A stretch of 64,000 bases of DNA. Origin: an uncultured virus (IMG/VR IMGVR_UViG_3300035204_001483). Lineage: Duplodnaviria > Heunggongvirae > Uroviricota > Caudoviricetes. Each line of letters opens with the position of its first letter. The first letter of the stretch is position 1. Position numbers and translations under genes: made by a program. The stretch lies in the IMG/VR virus record IMGVR_UViG_3300035204_001483. One strand, 5' to 3'. The notes under the pieces were generated by a model. That model was not told the DNA's origin, ran no database searches, and was given only the letters and a program-made list of their open reading frames with translations. Below are positions 32,405 to 58,201 of the stretch, one piece after another.

Positions 32405-32626
32405 ATGAAAAAACCTACTCGTTACCAAATCGGATGCCTGTATAAGGTCAAAGACCCTGATTCGCTCTGCGGTTATCAAATCGGACGTGCGAAAAGCGTA
32501 GAAAATGATGTGTGGACGCTCGAATCTTACGACGGTTCGACTTTTACCGTTCCCGCGAGTAAACTCCGCGTGGCAAAGAAGAAACAAATGAAGGAATTCA
32601 ATATAGTACGCACAGCGTACGCCTAA
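32405..32626 (+). CDS. Early cassette protein
   Basis: MKKPTRY.. starts just after the promoter; the track start lies inside the promoter. Confidence 0.7.
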   Translation: MKKPTRYQIGCLYKVKDPDSLCGYQIGRAKSVENDVWTLESYDGSTFTVPASKLRVAKKKQMKEFNIVRTAYA

Positions 32627-32729: not shown

Positions 32730-32939
32730 ATGAGTGAAACCTACGAACCTAATTCAGAAACCCCACTTAGCGCGAGCCTTGACGCGAAGCTTGACGCCGA
32801 ATTCGACGCCAGCACCATAAACTTGTTTAAAGCGCAAGTGGATGTGCTCGCTGACGAACATTTCACCGTCATCGATGAACTCTGTTACGAGGAAAACGAA
32901 AACGAAGACAGCTTCATGGATGGGCTCCGTGAAGAGTAA
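32730..32939 (+). CDS. Acidic MSETY-family early peptide
   Basis: Leaderless start; LDAK..EFDAST(I/L)NLF shared with 33636..33824. Confidence 0.75.
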   Translation: MSETYEPNSETPLSASLDAKLDAEFDASTINLFKAQVDVLADEHFTVIDELCYEENENEDSFMDGLREE

Positions 32940-33347: not shown

Positions 33348-33362
33348 AAAAACCTACTAAAT

Positions 33363-33635: not shown

Positions 33636-33824
33636 ATGAGTGAAACCTACGACCACCATAATCCTAACCTGGACGCCAAGTGTGACTTGGAGTTCGACGC
33701 CAGCACCCTCAACCTGTTTGAAGAGACCATCCAAGTGATGACTCTCGAAGGTGTGGAAGAAACCCCCGACGAACTCGAAGTAGTGCCATTCCGTCATTAC
33801 TACGATGAGCTTTTTGATGAATAG
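33636..33824 (+). CDS. Acidic MSETY-family early peptide
   Basis: Leaderless start; paralog of 32730..32939. Confidence 0.75.
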   Translation: MSETYDHHNPNLDAKCDLEFDASTLNLFEETIQVMTLEGVEETPDELEVVPFRHYYDELFDE

Positions 33825-33927: not shown

Positions 33928-34194
33928 ATGAATGACCTACTGTTCAACCTTGTCCGTTTCTTTGTTCGCCGCTCTCAAGTCCTGCGCCCTGTGGTGCGTG
34001 CAGTCATGCCGCATGAGTGGCAGTGGTCTTTCAGTAGCTGGGTCTTTAGCCGTTCTCATGGCCCTGCCCACAGGTGGCCCAACTCTCGTTGGGTTAACCT
34101 CGTGTGCCACCGCCTTTACTGGCTCACCAATCTCAGGGGCGAAGACCCCACATATGGGTGGTGGTGGCGAGCTAAACGACGATTAGGTTTTTAA
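33928..34194 (+). CDS. Trp/Arg-rich early cassette protein
   Basis: Leaderless ATG; the stop codon overlaps the next element. Confidence 0.65.
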   Translation: MNDLLFNLVRFFVRRSQVLRPVVRAVMPHEWQWSFSSWVFSRSHGPAHRWPNSRWVNLVCHRLYWLTNLRGEDPTYGWWWRAKRRLGF

Positions 34195-35178: not shown

Positions 35179-35478
35179 CTACTGTATTTGTAATTGAGAA
35201 GGCGGGTTTGTAGCTAACCCCACTGGCAGCGGTGGCAATGGCGGAAGGCTCATTTTTACCGTTTGAGGGATAGGGGGAGCAATCGGAATCGCTACCACAC
35301 GAGCCTCTTCAAAAGAGAGTCGGAGGATAGGCATCGCAGCCTTGATTTGATAAAGGCGATAGGCTTCAGCCTTCGCCTTCTCATGAGTCACGCCCAATTT
35401 TTTTTGGGCTTTGATGTGGTTGGTTACTTGCGCGGCCTTGACCGCGTTACGAGCTTGATAAGTTTTGTAGGTCTTCAT
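35179..35478 (-). CDS. Early cassette protein with Pro-rich tail (inverted cassette)
   Basis: Minus promoter TTGACA (35517)-17-TACATT; start MKTYKTY. Confidence 0.65.
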   Translation of the reverse strand: MKTYKTYQARNAVKAAQVTNHIKAQKKLGVTHEKAKAEAYRLYQIKAAMPILRLSFEEARVVAIPIAPPIPQTVKMSLPPLPPLPVGLATNPPSQLQIQ

Positions 35479-36085: not shown

Positions 36086-36301
36086 ATGAGTGAAACCTAC
36101 AACGACCCTAATTCCAACCTCGACCCCCAAAGCTCTGATGATCGCCTTGCCAAAATCGGCTCAGAGGAGTATTACGATGAGAAGCCTGATTTCTCCTCAT
36201 CTACAATAGCCTATGATGGCTTTGAAGGCTGCTGGCCTGGTGACGGGTCTGGCATGGATGACCTAGCAGACTTTAATCAGATGGAGGGCGACGACTATTA
36301 A
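36086..36301 (+). CDS. Acidic MSETY-start early peptide
   Basis: Leaderless ATG; PNSNLD resembles 33636. Confidence 0.7.
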   Translation: MSETYNDPNSNLDPQSSDDRLAKIGSEEYYDEKPDFSSSTIAYDGFEGCWPGDGSGMDDLADFNQMEGDDY

Positions 36302-37269: not shown

Positions 37270-37331
37270 GGGGTTACTAACCCCGCTGCCGCTTCCGCAA
37301 CCCTTTCGGGTTACAGGAACGAGGCCGTATT

Positions 37332-37715: not shown

Positions 37716-37813
37716 AATATTCTCCGTGGTTGTAGGTTTAACTAATGAAGATTAAAACATTTTTAAGTCTGATTGTCAAGGGAATTCGTAAACCGCTGCG
37801 GCTTCCCGCACCC

Positions 37814-38257
37814 CTACCTTGGGGGAACCAATGCCCAACACTCATGACCAACAAAGCAACGAGGTGAATTAAAAATTGGTTCTTCGTATTTCATCGTAAC
37901 AAACGTCTTATATTTATAAGGGTCGTATGTAATTCGCTCATAAACCCAATCTGCGTGTTCAGGCAAGTTAGCCATCGACTGCATATCCTTTAGCATCTTC
38001 TTCGGGCTTACCATTGGGGTTAAAGACAGAGGCGGTTGCTTTGTCCATGTGAGCCAATTGCCACGCACTACCGCATGAACGTTCTTACGCTTCTCATCAC
38101 GCACACGCTGATTGCCCTTTTCTCCAACAGCAAACTCAGCTTCTTGAATAATGATTCCGTGAACGTGTTTGCATACGAGTCTATCATGAGTGGTTCGCAC
38201 TGAGTAAACAATGCCTTCATGATGTAGGTTTCTGTAGACTTCAACTCTGCTTTTCAT
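37814..38257 (-). CDS. Conserved phage hypothetical protein
   Basis: VYRNLH..RVRDEKRKNVHA..YDPYK pattern. Confidence 0.7.
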   Translation of the reverse strand: MKSRVEVYRNLHHEGIVYSVRTTHDRLVCKHVHGIIIQEAEFAVGEKGNQRVRDEKRKNVHAVVRGNWLTWTKQPPLSLTPMVSPKKMLKDMQSMANLPEHADWVYERITYDPYKYKTFVTMKYEEPIFNSPRCFVGHECWALVPPR

Positions 38258-38259
38258 AA

Positions 38260-38709: not shown

Positions 38710-38818
38710 GTTCCTCCTTATGCTTAGGTTTACGGACGTAAGAGCCTTTGCCCTTCTTAACTCGGTGAACGCGAGAGGCACTGTTCATGTATCCTTCCTT
38801 ACTTTTCCTCGCCTTCAT
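38696..38818 (-). CDS. ArfA-like peptide (40 aa)
   Basis: MKARKSKEGYMNSASRVHRVKKGKGSYVRKPKHKEEHDQS contains the ArfA KKGKGSYxRKxKH motif; leaderless after TTGACA-17-TACTTT. Confidence 0.7.
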   Translation of the reverse strand: MKARKSKEGYMNSASRVHRVKKGKGSYVRKPKHKEEHDQS

Positions 38819-38914
38819 GTGGATAAAGTACACGAAAAAAGTCTAACTGTCAAGGGAATTCGTAAGCCGCAGCGGCTCCCGCAACCCCTTCGGGCTGCGA
38901 GAGTAGGGGGTTAT

Positions 38915-39169
38915 TTAATAACCTCGCCTCCCATTTGGGTTAGCCTTATCATACTGAGGCTTAAGGCTTGAAGGTAAGGTATTAAGGATCGAATATATCT
39001 CATTCAAACGATCATGTGTCTGTTGAAGCAAGCCAACCGTAGACCTAAATCTCTTGACGCTATCTTCCGTTAGGTTAATCCCGTTAATTAGGTTCTCCAT
39101 CTGATCAGAAAGATCAGAGGCTTGTTTGGTTAGTTCGATTACGTCTGTTGTAGGTTTCTTTTCGCTCAT
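38915..39169 (-). CDS. Coiled-coil early protein
   Basis: Own promoter TTGACG-17-TAGTAT. Confidence 0.65.
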   Translation of the reverse strand: MSEKKPTTDVIELTKQASDLSDQMENLINGINLTEDSVKRFRSTVGLLQQTHDRLNEIYSILNTLPSSLKPQYDKANPNGRRGY

Positions 39170-39240
39170 AACAAATAAGATACTACCCCAAAACTAAAAG
39201 CCCGTCAACAACAAAAGGGGATGCGTAAACCGCAGCCGCT

Positions 39241-39265
39241 CCCGTAACCCCTTCGGGGTTACGGG
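39241..39265. terminator. Hairpin on the right arm of the element at 3' ends of minus-strand cassettes (terminator or processing candidate)
   Basis: CCCGTAACCCC-TTC-GGGGTTACGGG; related hairpins near 35147, 35544, 37297, 38880. No clear U-tract. Confidence 0.5.
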
Positions 39266-39282
39266 TGGGGGGAGGGGGTTAT

Positions 39283-40182: not shown

Positions 40183-40635
40183 GATTAGGTTTTCTTTCTT
40201 GGGTTTAGGGTTCGTCTAACTGGTAAAGATTAAACCATATATCGGATTAAGTGTCAAACCTTTTTTCACCTCACTGGATAGATTCTTTTCCCCCCCCCTA
40301 ACCCCTTGCGAAGCAAGGGGTTGCGTAGGCCGCTGCGGCCTCACGAGCCCCTATACAATGAGACTTAACCCAATGCCCTTAATTGTTAGAGTTATTTAAC
40401 TATATTTAATTTGCCAAAAATTGCTGTATTTCACTGTTATTCTACCCCAGAGTTTCTTATATAAGGGGGATTTCTCCGATGAGAAAATGGGGGTATTTAA
40501 GAAATTGCGTTGGTTAGAATGATTACGGGCAATATGCCTTTCCGAAAACTCCTCCCGCTTAACTTCTAGAGAGCAAAATGATAAAACCTCTCTAGCTAAT
40601 AAGCATCATTCTTTACGATGCCAACGCTCACCGTT

Positions 40636-40860
40636 TTATGATGGAGTGTCTGTAGGCAAATTTTCCTCGACGATTTCCAGCTTCGCAACCGTATTTCCGT
40701 TTGCGTCTTGAGCGGTAACAAAGTCACCAACATCAACAGCCATTATGCGTCCCGCGTTATCAACAAGGCGTTCTAGTACATTTTGTATTTCAAACAGACG
40801 CTCTGAAGGATTGTTGCCAAAAGCGTCATTGCCTAGTTCGATTTCGATTTTCGCTTTCAT
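40636..40860 (-). CDS. Conserved phage hypothetical protein
   Basis: IEIELGNDAF..DANGNTV pattern; leaderless promoter at 40896. Confidence 0.65.
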   Translation of the reverse strand: MKAKIEIELGNDAFGNNPSERLFEIQNVLERLVDNAGRIMAVDVGDFVTAQDANGNTVAKLEIVEENLPTDTPS

Positions 40861-40885
40861 TGGGTATAACCTAACACACGAAACG

Positions 40886-41134
40886 CTAGTTGTCAAGAGG
40901 TTTCTTATGTCTTTCAACTACGTCTGCTACCTGCTCGCCCTTCTCGTAGTCAGGTAGCTTAACAACGTACATGGAGTCTCTATCTCTTAACGTATAATTG
41001 TATTCCGTGTGTTTTAATGTCACACTATTCCTTCCACCAGACAGACGCGCAGATTGAATAGCCTCCTCCTCAGAGTTAGCGTCTACGATATAAGTAGATG
41101 ACCACATTTCAGTTGTTATTACTTTATACTTCAT
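40886..41134 (-). CDS. DpnD/PcfM-like small protein
   Basis: YKV..IVDANSEEEAI. Confidence 0.5.
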   Translation of the reverse strand: MKYKVITTEMWSSTYIVDANSEEEAIQSARLSGGRNSVTLKHTEYNYTLRDRDSMYVVKLPDYEKGEQVADVVERHKKPLDN

Positions 41135-41137
41135 AAT

Positions 41138-41296
41138 TTAATCCTCGTAGATTTCCTTGTAGCGTTCTTCAATGTCTGCGTCAGGCATCTGATTGAACCC
41201 CAAGACTCCATCCATTAACATCTCACGAATGTCTCTATCTCCAACCTGTTCAAATACAGATTCCATTAAGCGTTCTCTTTTTTCGTCAATAGTCAT
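41138..41296 (-). CDS. 52-aa acidic hypothetical protein
   Basis: Read by hand; fills the gap in the operon. Confidence 0.55.
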   Translation of the reverse strand: MTIDEKRERLMESVFEQVGDRDIREMLMDGVLGFNQMPDADIEERYKEIYED

Positions 41297-41299
41297 AAT

Positions 41300-41476
41300 T
41301 TAATGCTCCAATACGTCAAACTTTGTTTCGTCGTCTAGGGTATAAGCATACTCTGTGTCTTTCCCGTAATCGCCTTCACCATTTTTAGCGGCAGCAATCG
41401 CTTCATTCTTATTCTCCGCTTCCACCACAACGTATTGCCAATGGACTTCGGGTATTCTAACTGTGAATGTTTTCAT
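41300..41476 (-). CDS. DpnD/PcfM-like small protein (58 aa)
   Basis: MKTFTVRIPEVHWQYVVVEAENKNEAI; read by hand. Confidence 0.55.
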   Translation of the reverse strand: MKTFTVRIPEVHWQYVVVEAENKNEAIAAAKNGEGDYGKDTEYAYTLDDETKFDVLEH

Positions 41477-41653
41477 TTAGTCCTCCAATTTCTTAAAGTT
41501 GTCTACTACGATTTGGCAGAGAGCATCCGCGTTTTCCTTATAACCTCCAGCGGCTTCTACATAGCAGATGATGTCCTCCTGCATTTGTTCTCTTACCTCC
41601 GCAAACTTTTCGGGGTAAACCTTCTTGTATCCTCCTCTGTGTATAATTTTCAT
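41477..41653 (-). CDS. Hypothetical protein
   Basis: MKIIHRGG..LCQIVVDNFKKL; packed in the operon. Confidence 0.55.
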   Translation of the reverse strand: MKIIHRGGYKKVYPEKFAEVREQMQEDIICYVEAAGGYKENADALCQIVVDNFKKLED

Positions 41654-41655
41654 AC

Positions 41656-41859
41656 TTAAATCCAATCTTGCTTTGAGTCTCCGCTGATACCATGCCTCTG
41701 GCATAAATCGTCCCACTCCATACTGTTATAGGTTGAGTTGCGAGATTGAGTATCAACCACCATTTCTTTTAGATGGTTTGTGAGTTCGCCTATGTCCTCG
41801 AATTGAATTCTGACGTACTTATCGGTAGATTGCCTTGGAGGTTTTCTTGTAGGTTTCAT
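41656..41859 (-). CDS. Early protein
   Basis: Leaderless MKPTRKP after TTGACA-17-TATAGT. Confidence 0.6.
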   Translation of the reverse strand: MKPTRKPPRQSTDKYVRIQFEDIGELTNHLKEMVVDTQSRNSTYNSMEWDDLCQRHGISGDSKQDWI

Positions 41860-41941
41860 GTAAAGACTATAGCCCACATTGGACTTTGTGTCAAGGACAA
41901 AAGGGGTTAAGGAAAACGCAGCGGCCTCATCATCCCCATTG

Positions 41942-42505
41942 CTACGGGCGTTTACGTGTCAGAGTTATTTTGCACTTATTGCATCGGTATGTGCGCCCCT
42001 TCTTCATCCTGTTATGAATTGTCGTGGATATAGTATGAGAAGGATTCGGACACCCGCAGTAATATTTCCATCGTTTCTGTTTCTTTCCTCCCGCATTCGT
42101 CGTATCATAATTGTGACACCTATTCGGTTTCAGACCGAGATGACGCATTACTTTTTTCCAATCGCGTCCGTGGGCGGTAGGCTTTTCAATTCTTCTTAGA
42201 CTATAGAGTTTGTCCGTCAAGATGTGTGCAAACTCGTGGCCGACTGTTTGCTTTATGAAATGCTCCACGTTTTCTTTTAGCAAAACGTAATTTATTTCAA
42301 TGATATTTCTATAGCTGTTCGCGGTTCCTGCCCTATTTCCTTTTAGACTATAACGTAGATCGGGCGGTTCCATTGTTATTCCCCAATGCTTTTCGGCATA
42401 GTCATGTAGTTCTCCAATTCTATCTTCGCAACGCGCTTGCAATTCTGCGGTGGTGGGAACAAGTAAACCCGACTCTTTTTTTTCGAATGATTCTATTATT
42501 ATCAT
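41942..42505 (-). CDS. SprT-like zinc metalloprotease
   Basis: RAGTA, HEFAH, HGRDWK, YYCGC..YRCNKC. Confidence 0.88.
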   Translation of the reverse strand: MIIIESFEKKESGLLVPTTAELQARCEDRIGELHDYAEKHWGITMEPPDLRYSLKGNRAGTANSYRNIIEINYVLLKENVEHFIKQTVGHEFAHILTDKLYSLRRIEKPTAHGRDWKKVMRHLGLKPNRCHNYDTTNAGGKKQKRWKYYCGCPNPSHTISTTIHNRMKKGRTYRCNKCKITLTRKRP

Positions 42506-42575
42506 TTTCTTTTTTTGGGGTTTCTTATGGCGTCAACGAGAATGTAAAGTAGTAAAAAGGTTACTATCGCAGACA

Positions 42576-43367
42576 CTAAGCCACCTCCATTTCTTTGCGT
42601 TTGCTGTACCCGTTCCAGCCTCTGCGTTTTAGTTCTTGAATTGCTTGGCTTGCTGCGCTGCCCTTTGGCTGTGTGCCATGAATGAGTAGAGCAAAATTCT
42701 TTTTTCCAAATGCTGCATGGTAATCATCATGGTCAATCTCAAAACCCATTGCGTCGGCTTCTTCTTCACTATAAACAACCTCGGCATACTTTAGACCATG
42801 CTCCACAATAAGCGCGTCATGCTTGCCGCCGAAAGATGCGGTCAGTACAAAGTTTGAAGGAATAGAATCAAAACGATGTACCCAAAAGTTCAAGCTCTTT
42901 GTGTACGCATAAAAATGCTTGTTGGGGTTACGTCGTGCAACTTCCATCCACGCATCAAAATAAACCTGTGAAAAGAAATCACCACCCACATGGACACGCA
43001 TGATGTCAAACTTTTTGGGAAGCATCGACTCTAGTAAATCGGCAACCTCTTTTGCCTGATTCTTTTTGTATCGCCATGCGTTGAGGAGAACGTTTTTGAT
43101 AGCCTCAAAATTACGCCACACCATTGCGCGTGTGTTTTTATACTGTGATTCGCTACTCGCCGCAAAGCAACGAAATGCTGTGTGTGGGCCGTCTGTAATC
43201 TTGCCCGTTGTCCTGTCCGCTTTAGACAAGCAATCTTTTGCTGCTGGACACGTCCACCCGCTAGGGAGGGTGAAAGATTTAATAGTTAAACCGAGCCGCT
43301 TCGCCATCGCAATTAACTTTGCGTTAGCTTGGGAAAAGGTTAGAGCTTGGGGTTGTGTAGGTTTCAT
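42576..43367 (-). CDS. Phage gp88-like protein
   Basis: SFTLPSGWTCP..C..CFA, RVHVGGDFFS, FYAYTKS. Confidence 0.7.
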   Translation of the reverse strand: MKPTQPQALTFSQANAKLIAMAKRLGLTIKSFTLPSGWTCPAAKDCLSKADRTTGKITDGPHTAFRCFAASSESQYKNTRAMVWRNFEAIKNVLLNAWRYKKNQAKEVADLLESMLPKKFDIMRVHVGGDFFSQVYFDAWMEVARRNPNKHFYAYTKSLNFWVHRFDSIPSNFVLTASFGGKHDALIVEHGLKYAEVVYSEEEADAMGFEIDHDDYHAAFGKKNFALLIHGTQPKGSAASQAIQELKRRGWNGYSKRKEMEVA

Positions 43368-43406
43368 GATGTAAATATAGCAGGTTTTACTTAGGTTGTC
43401 AAGTCT

Positions 43407-43853
43407 TTACTGAAAGTTGTAAAATCTTTCGCTGGTTTGTTTCCACTCTTCTTCATCGTTCCACACGCCACCAGTTTTCATAGTGCCATGCCCACACATT
43501 TCGCTACTGAGGGAAAGCCGGTAAGCTCCCCCATGCTGCACGGAAATAAACGTTTCGTGAATCATGTTGTTGAATCTAAGTCGCGCAAGTAAGCCAGCGT
43601 AACGTCTGACCTTTTCTCTTAGCGTGTTTCCGTGCTTGCCTAAGAAGTAAGCAAGGGAGGAGTTATAAAAGTAATTCCTTATGTCTTCCTCCGTTGTCCA
43701 GATGTAAGCAAACCTTTCAGACATATAATTCAACTCACCGTTGTACGCTCCGTGGTTGTACCAACTGTAATCCTGTGAAATGATTTTTTGGGGGTCGTCC
43801 GATTCGATACCGACTGCCCAACTGTTTCCGAGTGGTTGATAGAATAGCTTCAT
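43407..43853 (-). CDS. Early hypothetical protein
   Basis: Leaderless ATG after the promoter next to the last element. Confidence 0.65.
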   Translation of the reverse strand: MKLFYQPLGNSWAVGIESDDPQKIISQDYSWYNHGAYNGELNYMSERFAYIWTTEEDIRNYFYNSSLAYFLGKHGNTLREKVRRYAGLLARLRFNNMIHETFISVQHGGAYRLSLSSEMCGHGTMKTGGVWNDEEEWKQTSERFYNFQ

Positions 43854-43972
43854 TGGGACTTAAGGTACACTAATATAACCTACGTGTCAAGAGCAAAAAG
43901 GGGTTAAGAAGGCCGCAGCGATTTTCGCAAGCCTTATCCCGAGTTAAGGTCAAAACTCTTTATTTGATATAT

Positions 43973-44317
43973 TTAGAAGTCAAAAAATTCTATTATTTGA
44001 TCACTGTTTATTTTCCAGTGCATGAAGCTTATTATTTGAGAAGTAGATGGTATTTGAGGATCGCCAAACCCATATTGGTATCCCCCTATTACCATTGAGT
44101 CTAGTTGTGCGCCGATATCAGTTTCATCTATACCGACACTGAGGGTGCGAGAAAAATATCTTACATATATTATTTTGTGTTTTGTTTCTGCTCTCCACTC
44201 ACAACTTTTTTCAGTAATTGTACCTGCTAATATATATATCTTTCTATACCCGCCAAACCTTTTGAGAACAGAGGGGGTGACAACCCTTTGCAGTCCAGAT
44301 TCTCCAGATAAGTCCAT
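43973..44317 (-). CDS. Hypothetical protein
   Basis: 114-aa ORF. Confidence 0.5.
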   Translation of the reverse strand: MDLSGESGLQRVVTPSVLKRFGGYRKIYILAGTITEKSCEWRAETKHKIIYVRYFSRTLSVGIDETDIGAQLDSMVIGGYQYGFGDPQIPSTSQIISFMHWKINSDQIIEFFDF

Positions 44318-44323
44318 GTTATA

Positions 44324-45289
44324 TTATACATGAGTTTTATCTAGTTCTACTAGGTAGTTACGCCCTTTTTGAGTGATGTTCCTGCCTTTAGTTGTGATCT
44401 CCATGAGGTCGTGACTCTGAAGAAACAATTCGTAATCACACCGTAAGGATTGAACAGTCAACTTTACTTTTGTGCCGAGTTTAGTGAGCGAAACATCTCG
44501 ACAGTCACGTAATACTCGCAGCACCCTCACCTCTTTCGGGCGTAAACCTAAAGGAGTAATGCCTAGAGTGCCAGTTAACGCTTTCCAATCCTTACGGGTA
44601 AATTTAGAAAGTTTGCCGTTGGCATCTAAATACATCTGGATATTAATTGCCATCTTTTGGGCAGCGCGTGGGTTGCCACGCAACACAGAAGCGATTTCCT
44701 CTGGTAGTCCATCTTCAAATTCTACTTCACTTAAATTAAGTAAAATGATCTCCCCCAACTCCTCATGGCTGTAATCTTCAAGGTCAACTCTATCCAACCT
44801 ATCCATGAGAGCGTGAAATACCTTATGAGGTTCGCTCGTAGCAAATAAGAAAGTCTGACGACGAAAATCAAAATCAAACGTAAACTCATCCCAACTAAAA
44901 GAATTACGGTTTTGGGGATTAGGGTTAAGAATAGAGAGCATAACCATCTCAACATCTGGAGGAATCTCGCTCGCCTCATCAAAAAGAACGGTTACGTCCC
45001 TGTCGTGAACTTTAGGAATAATTAACTCATCAAAAAATGCTTTGGTATTCTTAATGGAAGCGCAATTAACTTCGCAATACTTTTTGGGTTTATCTTCTCC
45101 GCTTTTAACTAACTCTTTTGCTAGAGCTTTAGCTATAAGTGTTTTGCCGCACCCCTTTGACGCAGTAAACATCATGTTTGGAATCAATCCTGCTTTTTCG
45201 TAGGAATCAATATAGAAGTCTAACTTTCGTTTAGCTTGCGGTTGGCCTATAATGCCATCAAATCGTGAAGAGGTGTAGGTTTCGCTCAT
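44324..45289 (-). CDS. ruvB: RuvB-like Holliday junction AAA+ ATPase
   Basis: FDGIIGQ, GCGKT, LFDE, ALMDR, RGNPRAA, LGITPLGL, TTKGR: RuvB order of motifs and length. Confidence 0.78.
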   Translation of the reverse strand: MSETYTSSRFDGIIGQPQAKRKLDFYIDSYEKAGLIPNMMFTASKGCGKTLIAKALAKELVKSGEDKPKKYCEVNCASIKNTKAFFDELIIPKVHDRDVTVLFDEASEIPPDVEMVMLSILNPNPQNRNSFSWDEFTFDFDFRRQTFLFATSEPHKVFHALMDRLDRVDLEDYSHEELGEIILLNLSEVEFEDGLPEEIASVLRGNPRAAQKMAINIQMYLDANGKLSKFTRKDWKALTGTLGITPLGLRPKEVRVLRVLRDCRDVSLTKLGTKVKLTVQSLRCDYELFLQSHDLMEITTKGRNITQKGRNYLVELDKTHV

Positions 45290-45496
45290 GTAAAAATAGT
45301 ACTATCTATCGGAAATAAAGTCAAGCACTTAATCTTTTTTTAGTCTCATCTTCGACCTTCTTGTTAAAGACTTTTGCTTCGTGAGAGTTGGAATCATCTA
45401 ATACTATAGACCTGACCTCTCCATCTAACTCATCTAAGAATTCTTGATAAACTTCTTTGTGAGTGTCCCAATAGCGAGACGATTTAAGAGTCATGA

Positions 45497-45730
45497 TTAT
45501 TTTCTGCCTTCTGCGCGACGAATGGCTTCTTTTGCGATATCATCCATTATACGCTGATCACTTTTATCGTGATAAACGTGTCTACCGCTAATAACTTCAA
45601 AATTTTCGATAATGATTTTTTGTTTCCACGGGGGCTGCTCTCCCACCACTTCATTCCACGCAACTTCGTATCTCGCTGCCATGCCTGTCGGTGGTGAGGA
45701 AGGAAGCTTCATGTCCTTTATTACACTCAT
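45497..45730 (-). CDS. Hypothetical protein
   Basis: 77-aa ORF in operon. Confidence 0.5.
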   Translation of the reverse strand: MSVIKDMKLPSSPPTGMAARYEVAWNEVVGEQPPWKQKIIIENFEVISGRHVYHDKSDQRIMDDIAKEAIRRAEGRK

Positions 45731-45731
45731 T

Positions 45732-46013
45732 TTACCACTCCGTTTCTTTTACTTCGACGCGAACCCCGTCATCTTCTAAATTCGTCGTCTGGTCGTCCTC
45801 GAACTTAGTTTCTTTAACGTTTACGGTTGGCTTGGGTTGATCCGAAACAGATGTAATATCATTGCCAACAACACCAAGGTCTACAGCCCACTTACGCGAA
45901 ACTCTAACGGTCATACTGGGGCGGAGAAGATCATTTAACTGCTGGAGGGTAACATTGCAGAAAGAGTAAGACCCCTTTTTTCTTCCGCTACCAGGCTTTC
46001 TGGTTTTCTTCAT
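45732..46013 (-). CDS. Small protein with AT-hook-like basic N-terminus
   Basis: RKPGSGRKKGS; leaderless promoter at 46048. Confidence 0.55.
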   Translation of the reverse strand: MKKTRKPGSGRKKGSYSFCNVTLQQLNDLLRPSMTVRVSRKWAVDLGVVGNDITSVSDQPKPTVNVKETKFEDDQTTNLEDDGVRVEVKETEW

Positions 46014-46154
46014 GTAAAAATAGTACTACCAATCTAACTTCGTGTCAAGATTTTCTTAAAGAAAACAAAAGAAATAAAAAGAATAATACTAATAAATAAA
46101 AATAATATATACACTGTTGTTAATACTGCCACCCACAAACCAACCACAATCTCT

Positions 46155-47573: not shown

Positions 47574-47930
47574 GAGTATCTGGGATATATATAAACCAGC
47601 CACTCCTTTTTTTAAAATTTTTTAATCAATAAATCATGTATTCCCTTATATATACTACCTCTTATACACATGAACATTAAAGACTAAATCGTGTCGTTTT
47701 GTGGGGAAAAGTGGGGGAAAGTGTAGGTTTCTGTGGATTTGAGGGAGTGCAGGTTTAGGGCGAGTGTTCTAACAATAAAGAAAATAACACATTCTTAATT
47801 CAATGCAAGTTAATACTCTCTTTTATATGCTAATTACTTCCGTTTGGCCTTGTTTATGCCCTCTATCCATGCGCTAATAAACCACCAAGTTATCAATCCA
47901 AGATAAATTGCCCCGCCAAGATTTTCCATG

Positions 47931-49456: not shown

Positions 49457-49888
49457 TCTTCTTCTTCTCTTACTACTTCGCACCACTCTTTACAATCCCT
49501 GCAAATAGCGACATCATCACCAGCGGGGTTGTACACTGGTGAGCCACAACAACTACTAATCTCACCTGTTAAAAAATAGTCTGAGTAGTCCATGCTCATT
49601 GCAAATCTCTCTCTTATTCGTCTAACTCGTAAAGAGTGTTAGTTACCGCTTCTTCTAGCTTGTCTGGCATTGACGACGCGCCTTCTGGGTACTGCTCGTA
49701 GATCGCCTCTAACAGTTTATCAACCGTTTCCTTACTTACCGTATTGAACGAGTCTCTTTGTCCTAACATCTTTCCGTCTTTCTTTTAAATTTTAAAAAAC
49801 TTTTATAAGCTAGGAGCATCGAGAGAAGGAAGTGGAAGCTCCCGATGCTCCCGTTTGGGGGGTCTCCACCCCTCTAGGCTTGGGCAGC

Positions 49889-50701
49889 CTACATCTTCGG
49901 GGGCGGTAAAGGTGGAGACAGTAAAGTCGTTTCTCCCGTATCCGCATTATAATGACCTTGATAGTATGTATCTACTATTGGCTCTTCCAGAGCGCGAGAG
50001 AATACGCCAACCACCTTGTACTTCGCTGTACGGAGTTTCTGGCACTCACAATCCTTCGGGACACTCACAACGTCCGTAGGGTCAATTTCGACCACTACAA
50101 CGTGACTTTGATCGCCTCCGAAACTTTGCGCGTAATCCAAACTCCCCGCATGGAAACCATACGAACAGCCAATGTCGGCATCATCACACACTGTATTACG
50201 ATGCATCTCATGCGTTTGCCCGACCTTGTTGGAGAACGTGCCTGAGTAATGGTCAGTCCAATCACGCCTCAGACTTTTGTAAGCGAGAAAATTGCCATCG
50301 GGCGTAAAAGGCATATTCTTGTGCCGCAAAAACGTATACAATTCGTTTACAGCGCGGCGTGAAGGATTTGCCATGAGCTTATCCAAGAACTTTAACAGGG
50401 GGCGAAACGGACTCCCCATTTGAATTAATTGCAAGATGCGCTCAGTCACCACATTATGGACTGGTAAATCCTTATACTTAAGGATTCCGTTATCAATAAT
50501 GATATTACCTTCTGAAAGACCTGTGATTGTTGCTGGAATATCCAGCGCGGCTTTAAGCCCATCCCAATCCTGTGCCAACAAAGCCGCTTTTGCGACTTGC
50601 CAATTCGGATGCTCTAAACGAATTGTGTACGACTGACCTTCCTCATTTGGGGTATAGGTAAGTGAATTTGGTGTTAATATAAAACTGTGATCTTCTAACA
50701 T
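49889..50701 (-). CDS. rIIB: RIIB-like protein
   Basis: LYTFL..TPDGNFLAYK, CSYGFHAG, IDPTDVVSVPKD..KLRT. Confidence 0.85.
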   Translation of the reverse strand: MLEDHSFILTPNSLTYTPNEEGQSYTIRLEHPNWQVAKAALLAQDWDGLKAALDIPATITGLSEGNIIIDNGILKYKDLPVHNVVTERILQLIQMGSPFRPLLKFLDKLMANPSRRAVNELYTFLRHKNMPFTPDGNFLAYKSLRRDWTDHYSGTFSNKVGQTHEMHRNTVCDDADIGCSYGFHAGSLDYAQSFGGDQSHVVVVEIDPTDVVSVPKDCECQKLRTAKYKVVGVFSRALEEPIVDTYYQGHYNADTGETTLLSPPLPPPKM

Positions 50702-51294: not shown

Positions 51295-51323
51295 AATCTT
51301 TTTTTTAAAATTTTAATTAGAAG

Positions 51324-51398
51324 GGGGCAGGGAGAGATGACCTACTAACTCCCCCCACCCCTGAGTTGCCCTGCGAGAAACCTACTAATCGCAGGACA
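51324..51398 (-). ncRNA. Twin-hairpin RNA element downstream of rIIA with UUAGUAGGU loops
   Basis: TGTCCTGCGA-TTAGTAGGTTTC-TCGCAGGGCA and GGGGTGGGGGGAG-TTAGTAGGTCAT-CTCTCCCTGCCCC; fully paired only on the minus strand (G.U pairs). Confidence 0.6.
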
Positions 51399-51404
51399 GA
51401 TTGT

Positions 51405-53549
51405 TTAATTACATTCATCCAGTTGCACCATGTTGTTGCAGAGTGCTTTTAAAGCTATGTTCTCTCTATCGTAATAGCCGTCAACAGTGACGTGCTTTAC
51501 GAGAGGGTAATCCTCCTCAACTTGCTTGGCGAGGTCTTTTAGCTCAACATTTTTTTCTTTCTTAACCTTCTTGAGTTTGAATCCCCAATTCCGAGCAAGG
51601 TTTTCAAATTTCGTTACCTCTGCTTTGTCTGTTGATGATTCGTGAAAGTCACGTTGGACTTTAACGTAGGAGTGATCTTCACCGAGAATCTCTTCGGCTA
51701 TATCCAACTTGTTCTCTCTAAGGAACCAATCACGCTCAACACCATCTACTTGGCTAATCAAGCTTGCCTTTGTTGGGATGTCTTTTTCTTCCGCAATGTC
51801 CAAAACATGATCCGCAACCCACTCATGAAGTTCAATCCAGTTGGGATTGTCTTTCAGCTTTTTAGCTGCGACCTTGGTAAAGCCGATAATTTTTTCTGGC
51901 ATATTGTCTGCACCAAGTAGATTTTCAATCTCATGAATTTGATTATGAAAGTTATGCGGTTCACTGTAAGGATAACCTTCTGGCCTTTGGACAACGTACC
52001 GACTGATCTCAACGAACACTCCTTCATCTTCCTCAAGATCAATCTCAGTCGCAGTCCAACGATCACGCCACTTAGACCAACGGTAACAATCTTGATCATA
52101 CTCAAAAGTCTTTTGTACAGTGCGAGTCTGAGTGGAAACCGAACTATTCTTTGGCGGCTTCGGTAAATCTTTTAGCGAAAGCATTTCCGCATCAAAACCC
52201 ATCTCTTTGCAGATTTCTTTTTCTGACTTGAGTTTCGGTTCACTAGGAGTGCGGTGAGTATTCTCACTAAAGTTAATAAGGTAAACCTTACGTCCTTCTT
52301 CTTTCTGTTGTAGGTAAGTGATTTTACCCAAAGCTCCACGAACGTGACCGACATCATTCTTTACTATCACGATTTTCTCACGGGGTTCAATCGTTGTTCC
52401 CTGTTTGAACCTTATGTTGCCCCCGCTGGTTTTCTTCGTTGAACGAACGGTAACGTGGTCGTAATTGTAAAAATTATACTGAGAGTTTTTGATTTTCTCA
52501 CCGTTAAAGGTGATGTTCTCTTTCGCCCAAGTTGATAGTTGGTACAGTGAGCTACCGTAGTCGCAAATTTCTCCCATCAATCGTTTTGCGTCCCACATCG
52601 TTTTGCAGTTGTCGAATTTTTCTTCTACTTTTTTCTGCAACTCAGCGTTAACTTTTTTAAGTTTTCTAACGAGGTTTGTCTTTGTACGATCAGTCATTTC
52701 CAAAGCTTCACGACTTGCTGTGATGCTCAACTCTCCGATTTCACACTCGACAATGAGATGCCCGTTAACAATCTCCTTTAGATTTCTCTCTAAGCTCAAT
52801 TCGTCTGGATCAAAACCGTAAGGGATTCCACCCATTACCGCTGTCGGATCAGAGTAATTTGAAGCCTCTTTAATATACTTCCAGTTGTCGCCCTCAAAAA
52901 GTACGTCCACCTTAATCTCATCAATTTCGTGGTCTGAAAGACCATGAATAACTGGCTTTACTTTAAAATGTTTATATAATTTAATCGCCTTCTCGCTAAA
53001 TTCCTCGCAATCATCAACGTCTACGCCAATAACGATTTCAACACCATCCCTTTCGTTGGTATCGCTTGCTCCAAGCTTAGAAATTTGACCGACTTTCGTT
53101 TCGTCAATAAATGCCGTATGAACGTGTTTCACCCCATTAATGTAAGAGTTAATTACAAAGCTATCACCGTAGGCAAATGCCGATTTTGAACCAAGACCAA
53201 GCATACCAATTTGCTCGTTGCTGTTCCGCTTGGTAGACTCACCGTAATTCGCGTAAACATCTTTAATCTCTTCATCGTTTAGGGATGGGCCAAAATCACG
53301 AACCTTAAAAACGGGGTCTATAACGGTTGGCAACGTCACTTCGATGGGAATATCGCCATTACCAGCCTCTTTGTTGGCGTCTACCGCATTGGCTGAATAC
53401 TCACGAATAACTGCCCCAATCTTATCAGAGTAAAGTTGATTCCGTAAAACGTTGAAAATGTGGGAGAGTCCACTCTTTTTAATTCCAAAAGCAACTGAGG
53501 TTTGAACGCCGTTAGTTTGGACTTCGATTTTTTCGTCTATGACTTTCAT
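51405..53549 (-). CDS. rIIA: RIIA-like protein (GHKL ATPase N-terminus)
   Basis: LYSDKIGAVIREYSANAVDA, VRDFG, YGESTKR..GLGSKS, ASREAL; rIIB nearby. Confidence 0.88.
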   Translation of the reverse strand: MKVIDEKIEVQTNGVQTSVAFGIKKSGLSHIFNVLRNQLYSDKIGAVIREYSANAVDANKEAGNGDIPIEVTLPTVIDPVFKVRDFGPSLNDEEIKDVYANYGESTKRNSNEQIGMLGLGSKSAFAYGDSFVINSYINGVKHVHTAFIDETKVGQISKLGASDTNERDGVEIVIGVDVDDCEEFSEKAIKLYKHFKVKPVIHGLSDHEIDEIKVDVLFEGDNWKYIKEASNYSDPTAVMGGIPYGFDPDELSLERNLKEIVNGHLIVECEIGELSITASREALEMTDRTKTNLVRKLKKVNAELQKKVEEKFDNCKTMWDAKRLMGEICDYGSSLYQLSTWAKENITFNGEKIKNSQYNFYNYDHVTVRSTKKTSGGNIRFKQGTTIEPREKIVIVKNDVGHVRGALGKITYLQQKEEGRKVYLINFSENTHRTPSEPKLKSEKEICKEMGFDAEMLSLKDLPKPPKNSSVSTQTRTVQKTFEYDQDCYRWSKWRDRWTATEIDLEEDEGVFVEISRYVVQRPEGYPYSEPHNFHNQIHEIENLLGADNMPEKIIGFTKVAAKKLKDNPNWIELHEWVADHVLDIAEEKDIPTKASLISQVDGVERDWFLRENKLDIAEEILGEDHSYVKVQRDFHESSTDKAEVTKFENLARNWGFKLKKVKKEKNVELKDLAKQVEEDYPLVKHVTVDGYYDRENIALKALCNNMVQLDECN

Positions 53550-53615
53550 GTAGGTTTCTTTTTTTCGTAGGTTTTCGTTTCGTTAAAGAAGACTATACCA
53601 CCGTCTTGTTTCCTG

Positions 53616-53861
53616 TCAATCTTTTTCTCGTTTTCTTTCTATATCCGCTATTGTTAAGGCTTTTTTTAAAGTGTTAGATTTAACTGGCTCGGGATCACTC
53701 GCTCGGAGTTCCTTCTCAACCTTATCAAGCTCTAACATATCATTGAGAATAATTGCGGCTTCTTTTCGCGCTGAAAAACCATAATCATCTATCGTTCTAC
53801 TGCCTGTCATTAGCGCGTGAGCGATTTGCAAAGCTTGAGTTTTATTAATTAGCGTTTCCAT
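53616..53861 (-). CDS. Hypothetical protein
   Basis: 81-aa ORF in operon. Confidence 0.5.
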   Translation of the reverse strand: METLINKTQALQIAHALMTGSRTIDDYGFSARKEAAIILNDMLELDKVEKELRASDPEPVKSNTLKKALTIADIERKREKD

Positions 53862-57790: not shown

Positions 57791-58201
57791 TGGTGGAGGC
57801 GGTGGGAGTCGAACCCACGTCTTTAAAACCGTCTGCTCAGATATACTACAAGTTTAGTCGGTGACATACTTGTTAGTTGACCACCGACAGACTAACTAAC
57901 AAGGTTGGAGGCACTTTATTTATACTAGACTCCTCACCCTTCCTAGTTTTTTTTGCTCGCTATCGACGCCCTAGCTCCTTAACGAGCATCCAGAGTAGGA
58001 CGGGGTAGAACTAAGCTACCAGCGCAGCCTCTTCGGCCCAACCGAAACGAGCGAGAATCTCGTCTGCTTCAGCCAGTGAAGGAGCTACCATGTCAACGTC
58101 ATTGTTGGCATATATGTTTTTGATAGAATTTTTAAGAGGCCAACTATCATCCTCTACTTGCAATCTTGCGTAAGGCTCCAAATCGAAACCAGTACGCCCC
58201 C
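57791..58201 (-). ncRNA. ssrA: tmRNA
   Basis: 5' GGGGGCGTACTGGTTTCGA and 3' GACGTGGGTTCGACTCCCACCGCCTCCACCA; acceptor stem with G3.U; internal tag frame 58109-58011 (ANNDVD..AALVA). Confidence 0.93.

What the first reader, a model, noticed from the sequence alone, without database searches (positions are those of the whole stretch)
51324..51398. Twin hairpins after rIIA display the exact antisense of the early-transcript box
Seen: two different stems hold 12-nt loops UUAGUAGGUUUC and UUAGUAGGUCAU. Four G.U pairs show they fold on the minus (transcribed) strand. Loop 1 complements GAAACCUAC (MSETY, MKPT and rIIA starts; 11 nt to AAACCUACUAA before 33363). Loop 2 complements AUGACCUACU at 33932. 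The rIIA leader itself has two boxes. Known: 3'-UTR-derived sRNAs and loop-initiated antisense pairing regulate translation. Inference: an RNA switch that silences many leaderless early mRNAs at once and feeds back on its own operon, forming one circuit with the cassette array.
Basis: partly seen in the sequence, partly recalled or inferred. Interest (0 to 1): 0.85.

Follow-up and report, generated by a model that had tools for sequence, protein, structure and literature searches.

The report
rIIA terminator loops pair with starts
Two conserved hairpins at the end of a marine phage's rIIA message carry loops that are complementary to the start region of the same message and of about ten other early messages, which looks like an RNA-based way of throttling early genes.

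Summary
Two hairpins (51367-51398 and 51324-51361, minus strand) follow the rIIA stop codon. Their 12-nt loops are UUAGUAGGUUUC and UUAGUAGGUCAU, and the four G.U pairs favour the transcribed strand. The box AAACCTAC occurs 18 times against 2.8 expected, mostly just after sigma-70-like promoters fused to ATG (leaderless genes).

Uncultured marine relatives settle most of the question. Where rIIA is only 35-62% identical, the hairpins persist, the stems change with compensation, and the loops stay complementary to rIIA's own start region. This holds even in clades where the loop and start sequences are unrelated to UAGG (12-nt and 11-nt matches). Own-versus-other permutation gives p = 5e-5.

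Boxes on other early genes track the loop variant: GAAACCTAC with loop GUAGGUUUC, ACAACCTAC with loop GUAGGUUGU. Where rIIB abuts rIIA, the anti-start element sits at the rIIB stop codon instead.

Best reading (about 0.6): the 3' end of the rII message base-pairs with start regions and blocks ribosome entry. That gives self-limitation of rIIA and, in this phage, a small early regulon.

Repression, a stable 3' fragment, and cis versus trans action are all untested. Rfam has no match, and my literature searches found no description.

The parts
51367..51398 (-). Hairpin 1: 10-bp stem with one G.U pair; 12-nt loop UUAGUAGGUUUC at 51377-51388
   Evidence: The loop is invariant in 7 of 7 aligned relatives, and 3 stem pairs change on both sides.
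51324..51361 (-). Hairpin 2: 13-bp G+C-rich stem with three G.U pairs; 12-nt loop UUAGUAGGUCAU at 51337-51348. Probable terminator of the rIIA transcript.
   Evidence: In the 60% relatives the same hairpin is followed by CUUCUUCUUUAUUUU. In the window the tail is only CUUCUAAUU.
51295..51323 (-). A+T-rich spacer (TTCTAATTAAAATTTTAAAAAAAAGATT) between hairpin 2 and the next ATG at 51294
   Evidence: A similar A+T-rich block precedes the downstream gene in relatives. No sigma-70-like site lies here.
51405..53549 (-). rIIA gene (714 aa)
   Evidence: PHROG 612, RIIA, E = 3.4e-116; weak HATPase_c match.
53592..53619 (-). rIIA promoter: TTGACA, 16-nt spacer, TATAGT with TG; 11 of 12 consensus positions
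53567..53574 (-). Box 1 (AAACCTAC) in the rIIA leader, 15 nt after the -10 element
53550..53558 (-). Box 2 (GAAACCTAC) abutting the rIIA ATG. With the preceding A it gives 10 nt complementary to loop 1.
   Evidence: Duplex energy -12.9 kcal/mol.
45275..45283 (-). Box at codons 3-5 (MSETY) of a leaderless clamp-loader-like gene (44324-45289)
   Evidence: -13.0 kcal/mol. The ortholog in G002 keeps the box.
43357..43365 (-). Box at codons 2-4 (MKPT) of a leaderless gene (42576-43367)
   Evidence: -12.7 kcal/mol.
41849..41857 (-). Box at codons 2-4 (MKPT) of a leaderless 67-aa gene starting at 41859
   Evidence: -12.7 kcal/mol.
39150..39158 (-). Box at codons 5-7 of the gene at 38915-39169
   Evidence: -12.9 kcal/mol.
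38224..38232 (-). Box about 26 nt inside the gene at 37814-38257
   Evidence: position read.
37732..37739 (-). Box near the 5' end of a leadered transcript (TTGACA-17-TTTAAT), 24 nt before the ATG at 37715
   Evidence: -10.3 kcal/mol.
47723..47731 (-). Box in a pyrimidine-rich intergenic stretch; conserved in G002
   Evidence: Role unknown.
35467..35474 (-). AGACCTAC at codons 2-4 of a near-leaderless gene; fits loop 2 best
   Evidence: -12.4 kcal/mol with loop 2.
32736..32744 (+). Box in a leaderless MSETY gene of the cassette array (32730-32939)
   Evidence: -12.6 kcal/mol.
33642..33650 (+). Box in a leaderless MSETY gene starting at 33636
   Evidence: -12.6 kcal/mol.
36092..36100 (+). Box in a leaderless MSETY gene starting at 36086
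   Evidence: -12.7 kcal/mol.
33932..33941 (+). ATGACCTACT, 10 nt complementary to loop 2, at the 5' end of a leaderless gene
   Evidence: -15.6 kcal/mol with loop 2, the best site in the window.
33350..33360 (+). AAACCTACTAA, 11 nt complementary to loop 1, 5 nt before an ATG inside an operon
32411..32418 (+). Box at codons 3-5 of the gene starting at 32405

Best explanation
The twin hairpins are the 3' end of the early rIIA transcript. Hairpin 2 doubles as the terminator. Their large loops present a 9-12-nt antisense sequence that base-pairs as RNA with the 'box' inside the ribosome-binding window (about -23 to +13 around the AUG). The targets are rIIA's own message and, in this phage, about ten other early and mostly leaderless messages.

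Pairing with a pre-formed hairpin loop (a kissing-type contact) would hide the start region from 30S or 70S ribosomes and probably speed decay. rIIA expression would then limit itself, and box-bearing early genes would be turned down as rIIA transcripts accumulate.

Shown here: the structure, its conservation, and loop/box co-variation.

Inferred: that pairing represses; that it acts within one molecule and/or through a stable 3' fragment in trans; and the timing role.
For: (1) The structure is real and strand-specific.
- z = -3.7 on the minus strand; the plus strand folds worse.

(2) The structure is conserved.
- 41 of the 58 metagenome loci that keep at least 100 nt after the rIIA stop have a strong hairpin at or after the stop.
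- In 7 aligned sequences with rIIA 60-96% identical, loop 1 is invariant, 98.8% of pair cells are paired, and 5 pairs change on both sides. 0 of 500 shuffles reach the covariation score.

(3) The loops match rIIA's own start region, and this tracks sequence change across 16 clade representatives.
- Examples: AGAAACCTAC (window), AAACCTACTAAA (L137), AAGAAATCCTAC with loop GUAGGAUUU (L152), AAACAACCTAC (L157), CCTACCACAA (L153), AAACCTATAA (L171).
- With unrelated sequences: ACGACTATGAAA (L208), AAACCCGTTAA (L151), GAACTGAA (L146).
- Own pairs average 9.75 nt against 7.37 nt for other pairs; 0 of 20000 permutations reach the observed value (p = 5e-5).
- In 6 of 16 representatives no other 85-nt window of the locus matches as well.
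- Across 32 loci with both ends, 29 have at least 8 nt and 20 have at least 10 nt. The 3' partner is mostly unpaired in the MFE fold, and the 5' partner starts between -23 and +13 of the ATG in 29 of the 32 loci. L193 and L195 (promoter spacer, -49) and L149 (+26) fall outside.
- IMG/VR relatives give further independent cases: L260 has two different loops each matched by its own box, L259 has ACAACCTAC, L271 has CAACCCC/GGGGUUG, and L269 has ACCUAAAA/UUUUAGGU.

(4) Targets in trans co-vary with the loop. Sense-strand counts of GAAACCTAC versus ACAACCTAC are:
- window 10 : 0 and G002 8 : 1 (loop GUAGGUUUC);
- G004 1 : 3, G005 1 : 5, G006 0 : 4 (loop GUAGGUUGU).
- Fisher p = 7e-4 for G002 against G004-6.
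- The sites sit at leaderless promoters. One G005 site matches its loop over 12 nt.

(5) In the window, 11 of 37 promoter-proximal 45-nt stretches pair with a loop at -10 kcal/mol or better, against 4.4% of 3000 random stretches.

(6) Where rIIB abuts rIIA, there is no hairpin after rIIA. Instead, the rIIB stop region is complementary to the first 11-16 nt of the near-leaderless rIIA message. The duplex is 16 bp at -21.7 kcal/mol in L162 and -20.8 in L209, with a conserved U.G wobble that would be a mismatch in DNA.

(7) Non-homologous proteins share the N-termini MSETY or MKPT (the clamp-loader-like gene, PHROG 1392, and rIIA in some clades). This fits an RNA-level constraint.
Against: - There is no RNA evidence of any kind. 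No RNA run was listed that holds the region, so termination, a stable 3' fragment and the direction of the effect are all unknown.
- In the window, hairpin 2 has a poor U-tract (CUUCUAAUU), and the terminator scan does not call it because its loop exceeds 8 nt.
- 5 of 16 clade representatives have only 7-8-nt matches that other windows of the locus equal (L144, L146, L159, L169, L201). L193's best match lies in the promoter spacer and does not count.
- Only 11 of 37 promoter-proximal regions carry a good site.
- The three MSETY array genes are paralogs, and G005/G006 sites are partly orthologous, so counts overstate the number of independent events.
- In short relatives few extra targets were seen: 1 of 7 promoters in L152 and 1 of 4 in L157.
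- A 12-nt loop can probably form only about 7-9 pairs without strain (established knowledge of kissing complexes, not tested here).
Confidence: 0.6

Rival explanations
1. The pairing is real but positive. Contact between the 3' loops and the 5' end protects short-leader or leaderless messages from 5'-end-dependent decay. Alternatively, it brings terminating ribosomes close to the start for re-use on an SD-less message.
For: - The same co-variation applies.
- The hairpins sit 0-20 nt from the stop codon, and in several clades the stop lies inside loop 1.
- The rIIA leader has no Shine-Dalgarno sequence while rIIB has AGGAGG.
- A stabilising 5'/3'-UTR contact is known for B. subtilis hbs (PMC5737220; I saw the search listing and abstract start only).
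Against: - The paired segment covers the start codon or the first codons, exactly where a ribosome must bind. That is typical of repressors.
- Activation usually works by opening an inhibitory 5' structure, which leaderless messages lack (general knowledge).
Confidence: 0.17
2. Only the self-contact of the rII message matters. The boxes on other early genes serve another purpose, such as a start-site enhancer for leaderless translation, and match the loop only because rIIA's own start uses the same enhancer.
For: - Self-complementarity is the universal feature, present even in clades with no shared box (L208, L151, L146).
- AACCTA-like motifs are common near starts in many clades.
- Few extra targets were seen in short loci.
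Against: - Box variants on other genes follow the loop variant of the same genome.
- One G005 leaderless gene matches its loop over 12 nt.
- The window's loop 2 variant (GGUCAU) has its best partners on other genes, not on rIIA.
Confidence: 0.12
3. A DNA-level element. The box and its inverse are binding sites of a sequence-specific phage protein, or the hairpins extrude as single-stranded DNA (N4-type promoter, origin, recombination site). All sites drift together with the protein.
For: - A co-evolving protein and its sites would also give clade-specific motifs in both orientations.
- The boxes lie just after promoters, where a roadblock repressor could act.
Against: - G.U pairs in the stems, and stems that change with compensation, favour RNA of one strand.
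- The motif always sits in a loop at the 3' end and always in sense orientation at 5' ends.
- Wobble pairs occur in the long-range contact itself: U.G in the L162 group, and C-to-U in L149.
- The partner sequences are wholly different in several clades and move relative to the ATG, which a single protein site does not explain.
Confidence: 0.06
4. Ordinary tandem terminators. The loop/box likeness is chance or a leftover of duplication.
For: - Hairpin 2 has a G+C-rich stem and, in relatives, a U-rich tail.
- The other terminator-like hairpins in the window are plain.
Against: - All other strong hairpins of the early region have GNRA-type tetraloops, not 12-nt loops.
- Loop 1 is invariant, and the first nine loop-2 bases too, while rIIA protein is 60% identical.
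- The permutation and background tests argue against chance.
Confidence: 0.03

Closest known systems
icaR mRNA 5'/3'-UTR pairing in Staphylococcus aureus (PMC3868564; abstract read)
   Same: A motif in the 3' UTR pairs with the ribosome-binding region of the same message and blocks initiation. That is the same logic as the conserved rII 5'-3' complementarity.
   Different: - icaR uses an anti-Shine-Dalgarno motif (UCCCCUG) in a long 3' UTR of a cellular gene.
- Here the antisense sits in the loops of the terminator hairpins of a lytic-phage early gene, and targets are mostly SD-less or leaderless starts.
- The sequence differs from clade to clade, and in this phage the same loop fits about ten other messages.
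c4 antisense RNA of phages P1 and P7 (review PMC12197685, passages read); the P4 CI RNA is similar (recalled)
   Same: A phage RNA cut from the operon it controls. It presents complementary sequences in loops, blocks a ribosome-binding site, and loop/target pairs differ between related phages.
   Different: - c4 controls one antirepressor operon of temperate phages and underlies immunity.
- The element here has no Rfam match, lies at the 3' end of rIIA, and addresses its own start plus a set of early genes of what looks like a lytic phage.
3'-UTR-derived small RNAs that share the mRNA's terminator (CpxQ, SroC and the like; recalled, not looked up)
   Same: A regulator encoded at the 3' end of a coding transcript, with a conserved seed and a terminator hairpin.
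   Different: - Those seeds are usually single-stranded stretches 5' of the terminator. That holds for the L162-type relatives.
- In the window the seed is inside the hairpin loops, twice.
- No RNA species has been observed.
OxyS-fhlA two-site kissing complex (recalled, not looked up)
   Same: Two hairpin loops of one RNA contact two sites around a start codon. Here there are two loops and two boxes in the rIIA leader. In L260 and L164 there are two different loops, each with its own box.
   Different: OxyS is a stand-alone stress sRNA of E. coli. Simultaneous two-site binding was not tested here.
T4 RegA and RegB shut-off of early messages (recalled)
   Same: Post-transcriptional turning-down of early genes at their start regions, rII genes among them.
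   Different: T4 uses proteins. No RNA device of this kind is known to me for T4, and the window shows no such proteins in the PHROG scan of 42 ORFs.
PeSL promoter-terminator cassettes of T4-like phages (PMC4122927, abstract read; PMC2839356, search listing only)
   Same: The window's array of small genes resembles this kind. Each gene has a stem-loop followed by an early promoter.
   Different: PeSLs are recombination-prone terminator/promoter units. The twin hairpins are not followed by an early promoter and carry large sequence-specific loops.

Membership tests
Intrinsic (Rho-independent) terminator | G+C-rich stem-loop at the end of a transcription unit | tested here: met
   Hairpin 2 has 13 bp, 9 of them G-C, and a folding energy of -23.8 kcal/mol.
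Intrinsic (Rho-independent) terminator | Run of U directly after the stem | tested here: inconclusive
   The window has CUUCUAAUUAAAAUUUU. The 60% relatives have CUUCUUCUUUAUUUU. The consensus scan does not call it because the loop exceeds 8 nt.
5'/3'-UTR self-pairing mRNA (icaR type) | 3' UTR sequence complementary to the ribosome-binding region of the same message | tested here: met
   10 nt in the window. At least 8 nt in 29 of 32 loci. Own versus other p = 5e-5.
5'/3'-UTR self-pairing mRNA (icaR type) | Pairing blocks the initiation complex and/or creates an RNase III substrate | not testable with these tools
   Needs toeprinting, reporters or RNase assays.
3'-UTR-derived regulatory small RNA | Conserved seed next to the mRNA's own terminator | tested here: met
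   Loop 1 is invariant across 7 of 7 aligned relatives, and the first nine loop-2 bases are too. UAGG-type loops occur across clades.
3'-UTR-derived regulatory small RNA | A stable small RNA species accumulates | not testable with these tools
   No RNA run was listed that holds the region.
3'-UTR-derived regulatory small RNA | Targets in trans with complementary sites at start regions | tested here: met
   11 of 37 promoter-proximal regions in the window. Box variants follow loop variants in G002-G006. Prediction only.
P1/P7 c4 antisense RNA family and other curated RNA families (Rfam 15) | Match to the family covariance model | tested here: not met
   No family reaches its threshold at the hairpins. 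The best E-values are 3.8-8.9, to unrelated miRNA and CRISPR models.
PeSL promoter-terminator cassette | Stem-loop immediately followed by an early (sigma-70-like) promoter | tested here: not met
   No promoter-like site lies between 51324 and 51294. The spacer is an A+T-rich block.

The most novel reading that the evidence does not exclude
A large clade of uncultured marine phages builds a self-addressing RNA circuit into the rII transcription unit. The 3' end of the message carries, usually in terminator-hairpin loops, the antisense of its own 5' start region, and this 'address' drifts and is re-matched in every lineage. In this phage and its near relatives the address has been copied onto the first codons of about ten unrelated leaderless early genes, forcing shared N-termini such as MSETY and MKPT. 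One 3' RNA end would then act as a genome-wide early shut-off switch, an RNA counterpart of T4 RegA/RegB.
Probability: 0.45. Interest if true: 0.88.

Novelty: new variant of a known kind. Interest (0 to 1): 0.8.

Why it matters
- Post-transcriptional control by phage-encoded RNAs is known from a handful of temperate phages. For lytic phages, and for the huge uncultured marine virome, it is almost unexplored.
- This element has unusually clear comparative support, because structure, loop and targets all co-vary. It can therefore be tested with simple reporters even without the host.
- It would add a second natural case of bacterial-type 5'-3' message pairing, and a widespread one.
- It would show an RNA address shaping the first codons of proteins.
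- It gives a sequence rule (3' loop equals the antisense of the 5' start) that can be searched for in other phage operons.
- It also marks this phage group as a rich source of leaderless genes.

Tried and rejected
- **Nucleotide search in cultured phages.** The region found nothing. The best cultured rIIA relatives are 26-29% identical.
- **Cultured relatives as a test system.** In Ruegeria phage RpAliso and Rhodobacter phage RcXuper, rIIB overlaps or follows rIIA by 17 nt and no hairpins are present, so they cannot be used. TerL also has no close cultured relative.
- **Scan of viral contigs for two UUAGUAGGU copies 25-55 nt apart.** None of the 25 best-folding ones I looked at had a twin-hairpin layout; most were coding repeats.
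- **Exact scan for the clade-B hairpin 2.** 0 hits.
- **First protein-based scan of viral contigs.** 0 confirmed. The alignment-based scans worked.
- **The window's own assembly.** It is not held. The nearest record, G001, covers only 19341-48760 and not the hairpins. It does keep all orthologous boxes.
- **Metagenome record behind L157.** It could not be searched whole.
- **RNA evidence.** No RNA holder was listed, and I did not lay reads.
- **Other hairpins with UAGG in the loop.** None in the window is convincing beyond background.
- **Same rule for rIIB.** Its 3' hairpin loop (CUUCCACUUCCUU) has no clear partner by exact matching. Across relatives the loops are pyrimidine-rich and anti-SD-like. 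An automated own-versus-other test gave p = 0.01, but several loops were badly extracted, so I treat it as a side note.
- **Host rRNA or tRNA mimicry.** I considered that the loops mimic a host rRNA or tRNA segment. I rejected it because loop and partner differ completely between clades.
- **Antitermination.** I rejected antitermination by the 5' box invading the terminator, because the complementarity stays within the loops.

Full report
**What is at the site**

Read on the minus strand, the rIIA gene (51405-53549; PHROG 612, E = 3.4e-116) ends in TAA. Two hairpins follow.
- Hairpin 1 spans 51367-51398, with a 10-bp stem and loop UUAGUAGGUUUC.
- Hairpin 2 spans 51324-51361, with a 13-bp G+C-rich stem and loop UUAGUAGGUCAU.
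- Four stem pairs are G.U.

The minimum-energy fold of the minus-strand RNA is exactly these two hairpins. The energy is -40.7 kcal/mol, z = -3.7, and 0 of 200 shuffles fold as well. The plus strand gives broken stems and -31.9 kcal/mol. The coordinates and details of the finding are right.

**What the window is**

It is part of a large phage with rIIA, rIIB (49889-50701), PhoH, a large terminase subunit, a clamp-loader-like gene, a collagen-like tail fibre and two methyltransferases. It also carries a tmRNA gene. G+C content is 42%.

It has no close cultured relative. The nucleotide search found nothing, the best cultured rIIA is 26-29% identical, and TerL is about 25% identical. Protein relatives come from marine metagenomes.

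**The box**

AAACCTAC occurs 18 times against 2.81 +/- 1.50 expected. One copy is the complement of loop 1. Of the other 17:
- 10 lie 9-32 nt after a TTGAC-N17-19-(T/A)AnnnT match. One more follows TTGACA-17-TTTAAT.
- 13 lie between 25 nt before and 12 nt after an ATG that opens an ORF of at least 40 aa.

The promoters are typically TTGAC(A/G)-17-TAnnnT followed after 6-7 nt by ATG. These genes are therefore predicted to be leaderless. This is an inference from spacing, not a mapped start.

The box then forms codons 2-4 (MKPT) or 3-5 (MSETY). These N-termini occur on unrelated proteins: a clamp-loader-like protein, a PHROG 1392 protein and small array genes. That points to a constraint on the RNA rather than on the protein.

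The rIIA leader has two boxes and no Shine-Dalgarno sequence. The second box abuts the ATG. rIIB, by contrast, has AGGAGG.

**Relatives keep the hairpins**

An alignment of rIIA with 13 metagenomic homologs (59-96% identity) was used to fetch 80 metagenome loci.
- 58 loci keep at least 100 nt after the rIIA stop.
- 41 of those have a strong hairpin at or after the stop.
- In 15, rIIB follows at once.
- 2 are unclear.

In the seven sequences closest to the window (rIIA 60-96% identical), loop 1 is invariant and the first nine bases of loop 2 are invariant, while the stems differ. 98.8% of pair cells are paired, five pairs change on both sides, several switch between G.U and G-C or A-U, and 0 of 500 shuffles reach the covariation score.

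In more distant clades (rIIA 35-45% identical) the stems are entirely different but the layout stays. There is a short hairpin at or across the stop codon, then a long G+C-rich one. Loops are of the UAGG type: UUGUAGGUUGU, UUUGUAGGAUUU, UUAUAGGUUA, UUGUGGUAGG and others. In several clades the stop codon UAG is itself part of loop 1.

All other strong hairpins in the window's early region have plain GNRA-type tetraloops. The large loops are therefore special to this site, with the rIIB hairpin as a second case (see below).

**The decisive result: the loops match rIIA's own start region, whatever the sequence**

For 16 clade representatives I compared the 110 nt around and after the rIIA stop with the 85 nt around each rIIA start.
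- Own pairs share 9.75 nt of exact complementarity on average. Pairs from different clades share 7.37 nt. 0 of 20000 permutations reach the observed value (p = 5e-5).
- The matched words change with the clade: AGAAACCTAC (window), AAACCTACTAAA (L137), AAGAAATCCTAC (L152, loop GUAGGAUUU), AAACAACCTAC (L157), CCTACCACAA (L153), AAACCTATAA (L171).
- Three clades use sequences unrelated to the box: ACGACTATGAAA across the start codon of L208 (loop AUUUCAUAGUCGUCAU), AAACCCGTTAA in L151 (loop UUAUUAACGGGUUUG), and GAACTGAA in L146.

Against other 85-nt windows of the same locus:
- the own start is unmatched in 6 of 16 representatives;
- it is within the top 3% in 5 more, one of which (L193) is a meaningless hit in the promoter spacer;
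- it is not distinguished in 5.

Over all 32 loci with both ends, 29 have at least 8 nt and 20 have at least 10 nt. The 3' partner is mostly unpaired in the predicted fold. The 5' partner starts between -23 and +13 of the ATG in 29 of the 32 loci; the exceptions are L193 and L195 (promoter spacer) and L149 (+26).

IMG/VR relatives add further cases:
- L260 has two different loops, each with its own box.
- L259 has ACAACCTAC.
- L271 has CAACCCC/GGGGUUG.
- L269 has ACCUAAAA/UUUUAGGU.

In L149 a C-to-U change in the start region keeps the pair as G.U.

**A further variant**

In the 15 loci where rIIB abuts rIIA there is no hairpin after rIIA. Instead, the segment across the rIIB stop codon, just before that operon's terminator hairpin, is complementary to the very 5' end of the near-leaderless rIIA message.

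The predicted duplexes are 16 bp at -21.7 kcal/mol in L162, -20.8 in L209, -14.5 in L185, -13.9 in L182, and only -5.8 in L210. Where the duplex is strong (L162, L209, L185, L182), it keeps a conserved U.G wobble. The rule therefore belongs to the rII transcription unit, not to a particular hairpin.

**Other targets follow the loop**

- **G002** is a 158-kb, 91%-complete relative (rIIA 58% identical) with the same loop 1. It has 8 sense-strand GAAACCTAC copies and 1 ACAACCTAC copy. Seven of the 8 sit at leaderless promoters (MKPT, MSETY), including the ortholog of the clamp-loader-like gene. The eighth is the conserved intergenic box.
- **G005 and G006** have loops GUAGGUUGU and the reverse counts, 1: 5 and 0: 4. 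G004 has 1: 3. The window has 10: 0. Fisher's test for G002 against G004-6 gives p = 7e-4. These lineages and sites are not fully independent.
- The G005/G006 sites are again at leaderless promoters or abut an ATG. One matches its loop over 12 nt.
- **G003** (loop GUAGGAUUU) has AATCCTAC at the rIIA start and at one leaderless promoter.
- **In the window,** 11 of 37 promoter-proximal stretches pair with a loop at -10 kcal/mol or better, against 4.4% of 3000 random stretches. The best site, -15.6 kcal/mol, is the loop-2 partner at 33932.

**How it most likely works**

The complementarity is confined to loops or single strands at the 3' end and to the ribosome-binding window at the 5' end. It uses wobble pairs and is re-matched after sequence turnover. 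Those are the marks of RNA-RNA pairing.

I therefore read the element as an anti-start sequence displayed at the 3' end of the rII message. It occludes ribosome entry on rIIA's own message, and in this phage and its near relatives on about ten other early messages.

Two modes are possible:
- **Within one molecule:** a finished message shuts itself.
- **In trans:** a 3' fragment protected by the two hairpins acts on other messages. The non-rIIA targets require this mode.

Either mode gives delayed negative feedback, because the antisense appears only when the 2.2-kb gene has been transcribed.

Repression is inferred from the position of the sites. A stabilising or ribosome-recycling role is the main rival (0.17). 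A self-contact-only reading, a DNA-level reading and plain terminators are less likely, for the reasons given under the rivals.

**Comparison with what is known**

- The logic equals icaR 5'/3'-UTR pairing (PMC3868564, abstract).
- It resembles the c4 RNA of P1 and P7, whose loop sequences and targets differ between related phages (PMC12197685, passages).
- It also resembles 3'-UTR-derived sRNAs and the two-site OxyS-fhlA contact. Both are recalled, not looked up.
- It is not a member of any Rfam family.
- It is not a PeSL cassette, because no early promoter follows it (PMC4122927 abstract).

Six literature searches found no description of this element. They combined rIIA, leaderless, stem-loop, terminator, marine phage and phage sRNA terms. 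That covers only the held library.

Two earlier notes of this scan, on other genomes, reached similar readings. They are not independent evidence.

**Limits**

- No transcript data exist for this phage.
- The host is unknown.
- Start codons of distant relatives were chosen by rule.
- Loop lists for one test were curated by eye.
- Counts across related genomes share ancestry.

Noticed in passing
window 57791-58201 (-): A full-length tmRNA gene in the phage. Rfam RF00023 scores 148.7 bits. ARAGORN predicts the tag peptide ANNDVDMVAPSLAEADEILARFGWAEEAALVA, which is unusually long.
   Followed up: no
window 32300-37300 (+) and 35400-46100 (-): Very many promoters of the form TTGAC(A/G)-17-TAnnnT followed after 6-7 nt by ATG, so dozens of predicted leaderless early genes. 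On the plus strand they form an array of small genes with near-identical promoter cassettes (TTGACG-17-TACTAT-TTCCCC-ATG), resembling PeSL cassettes of T4-like phages.
   Followed up: partly
window 35158, 35555, 37307, 38891, 39254, 40312 (-): A repeated G+C-rich hairpin with a GNRA-type tetraloop (GGGTTGCGGG-type stems), followed by CCGCTGCGGC and then an early promoter. This is the ordinary terminator type of the early region and contrasts with the 12-nt loops after rIIA.
   Followed up: no
window 49798-49838 (-), just after the rIIB stop: A 14-bp hairpin with a 13-nt pyrimidine loop, CUUCCACUUCCUU. Relatives have UUCCUCCUU-type loops (anti-Shine-Dalgarno-like) after rIIB, and rIIB has a strong SD. 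An own-versus-other energy test gave p = 0.01, but loop extraction was rough.
   Followed up: partly
window 51295-51323 (-) and 49770-49800 (-); loci L134, L139, L144, L149, L153, L169: An A+T-rich block (ATTAAAATTTTAAAAAAA, or TATTTATTTAAAAA in relatives) stands 5-15 nt before the gene that follows the rIIA or rIIB hairpins. It is a candidate middle or late promoter of the phage.
   Followed up: no
window 47600-47840 (-); G002 around 43744: A 400-nt intergenic region with a pyrimidine-rich stretch carrying the box (CCACAGAAACCTACAC...CCCCAC). It is conserved in the 58% relative. G001 has a second box there. It could be another target, a decoy or a small RNA.
   Followed up: partly
loci L162, L182, L185, L209 (rIIA-rIIB operons): Where rIIB abuts rIIA, the last codons and stop of rIIB are complementary to the first 11-16 nt of the rIIA message, so both partners are coding sequence.
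   Followed up: yes
loci L208, L211, L212, after the rIIA hairpin: A tRNA-like cloverleaf sequence follows the rIIA terminator in this clade. I read this from the fold and did not run tRNA detection.
   Followed up: no
window 7675-7714 (+): A 12-bp hairpin with G.U pairs and a 16-nt loop containing GUAGGA. It is the only other large-loop hairpin with a UAGG motif and is probably background.
   Followed up: no
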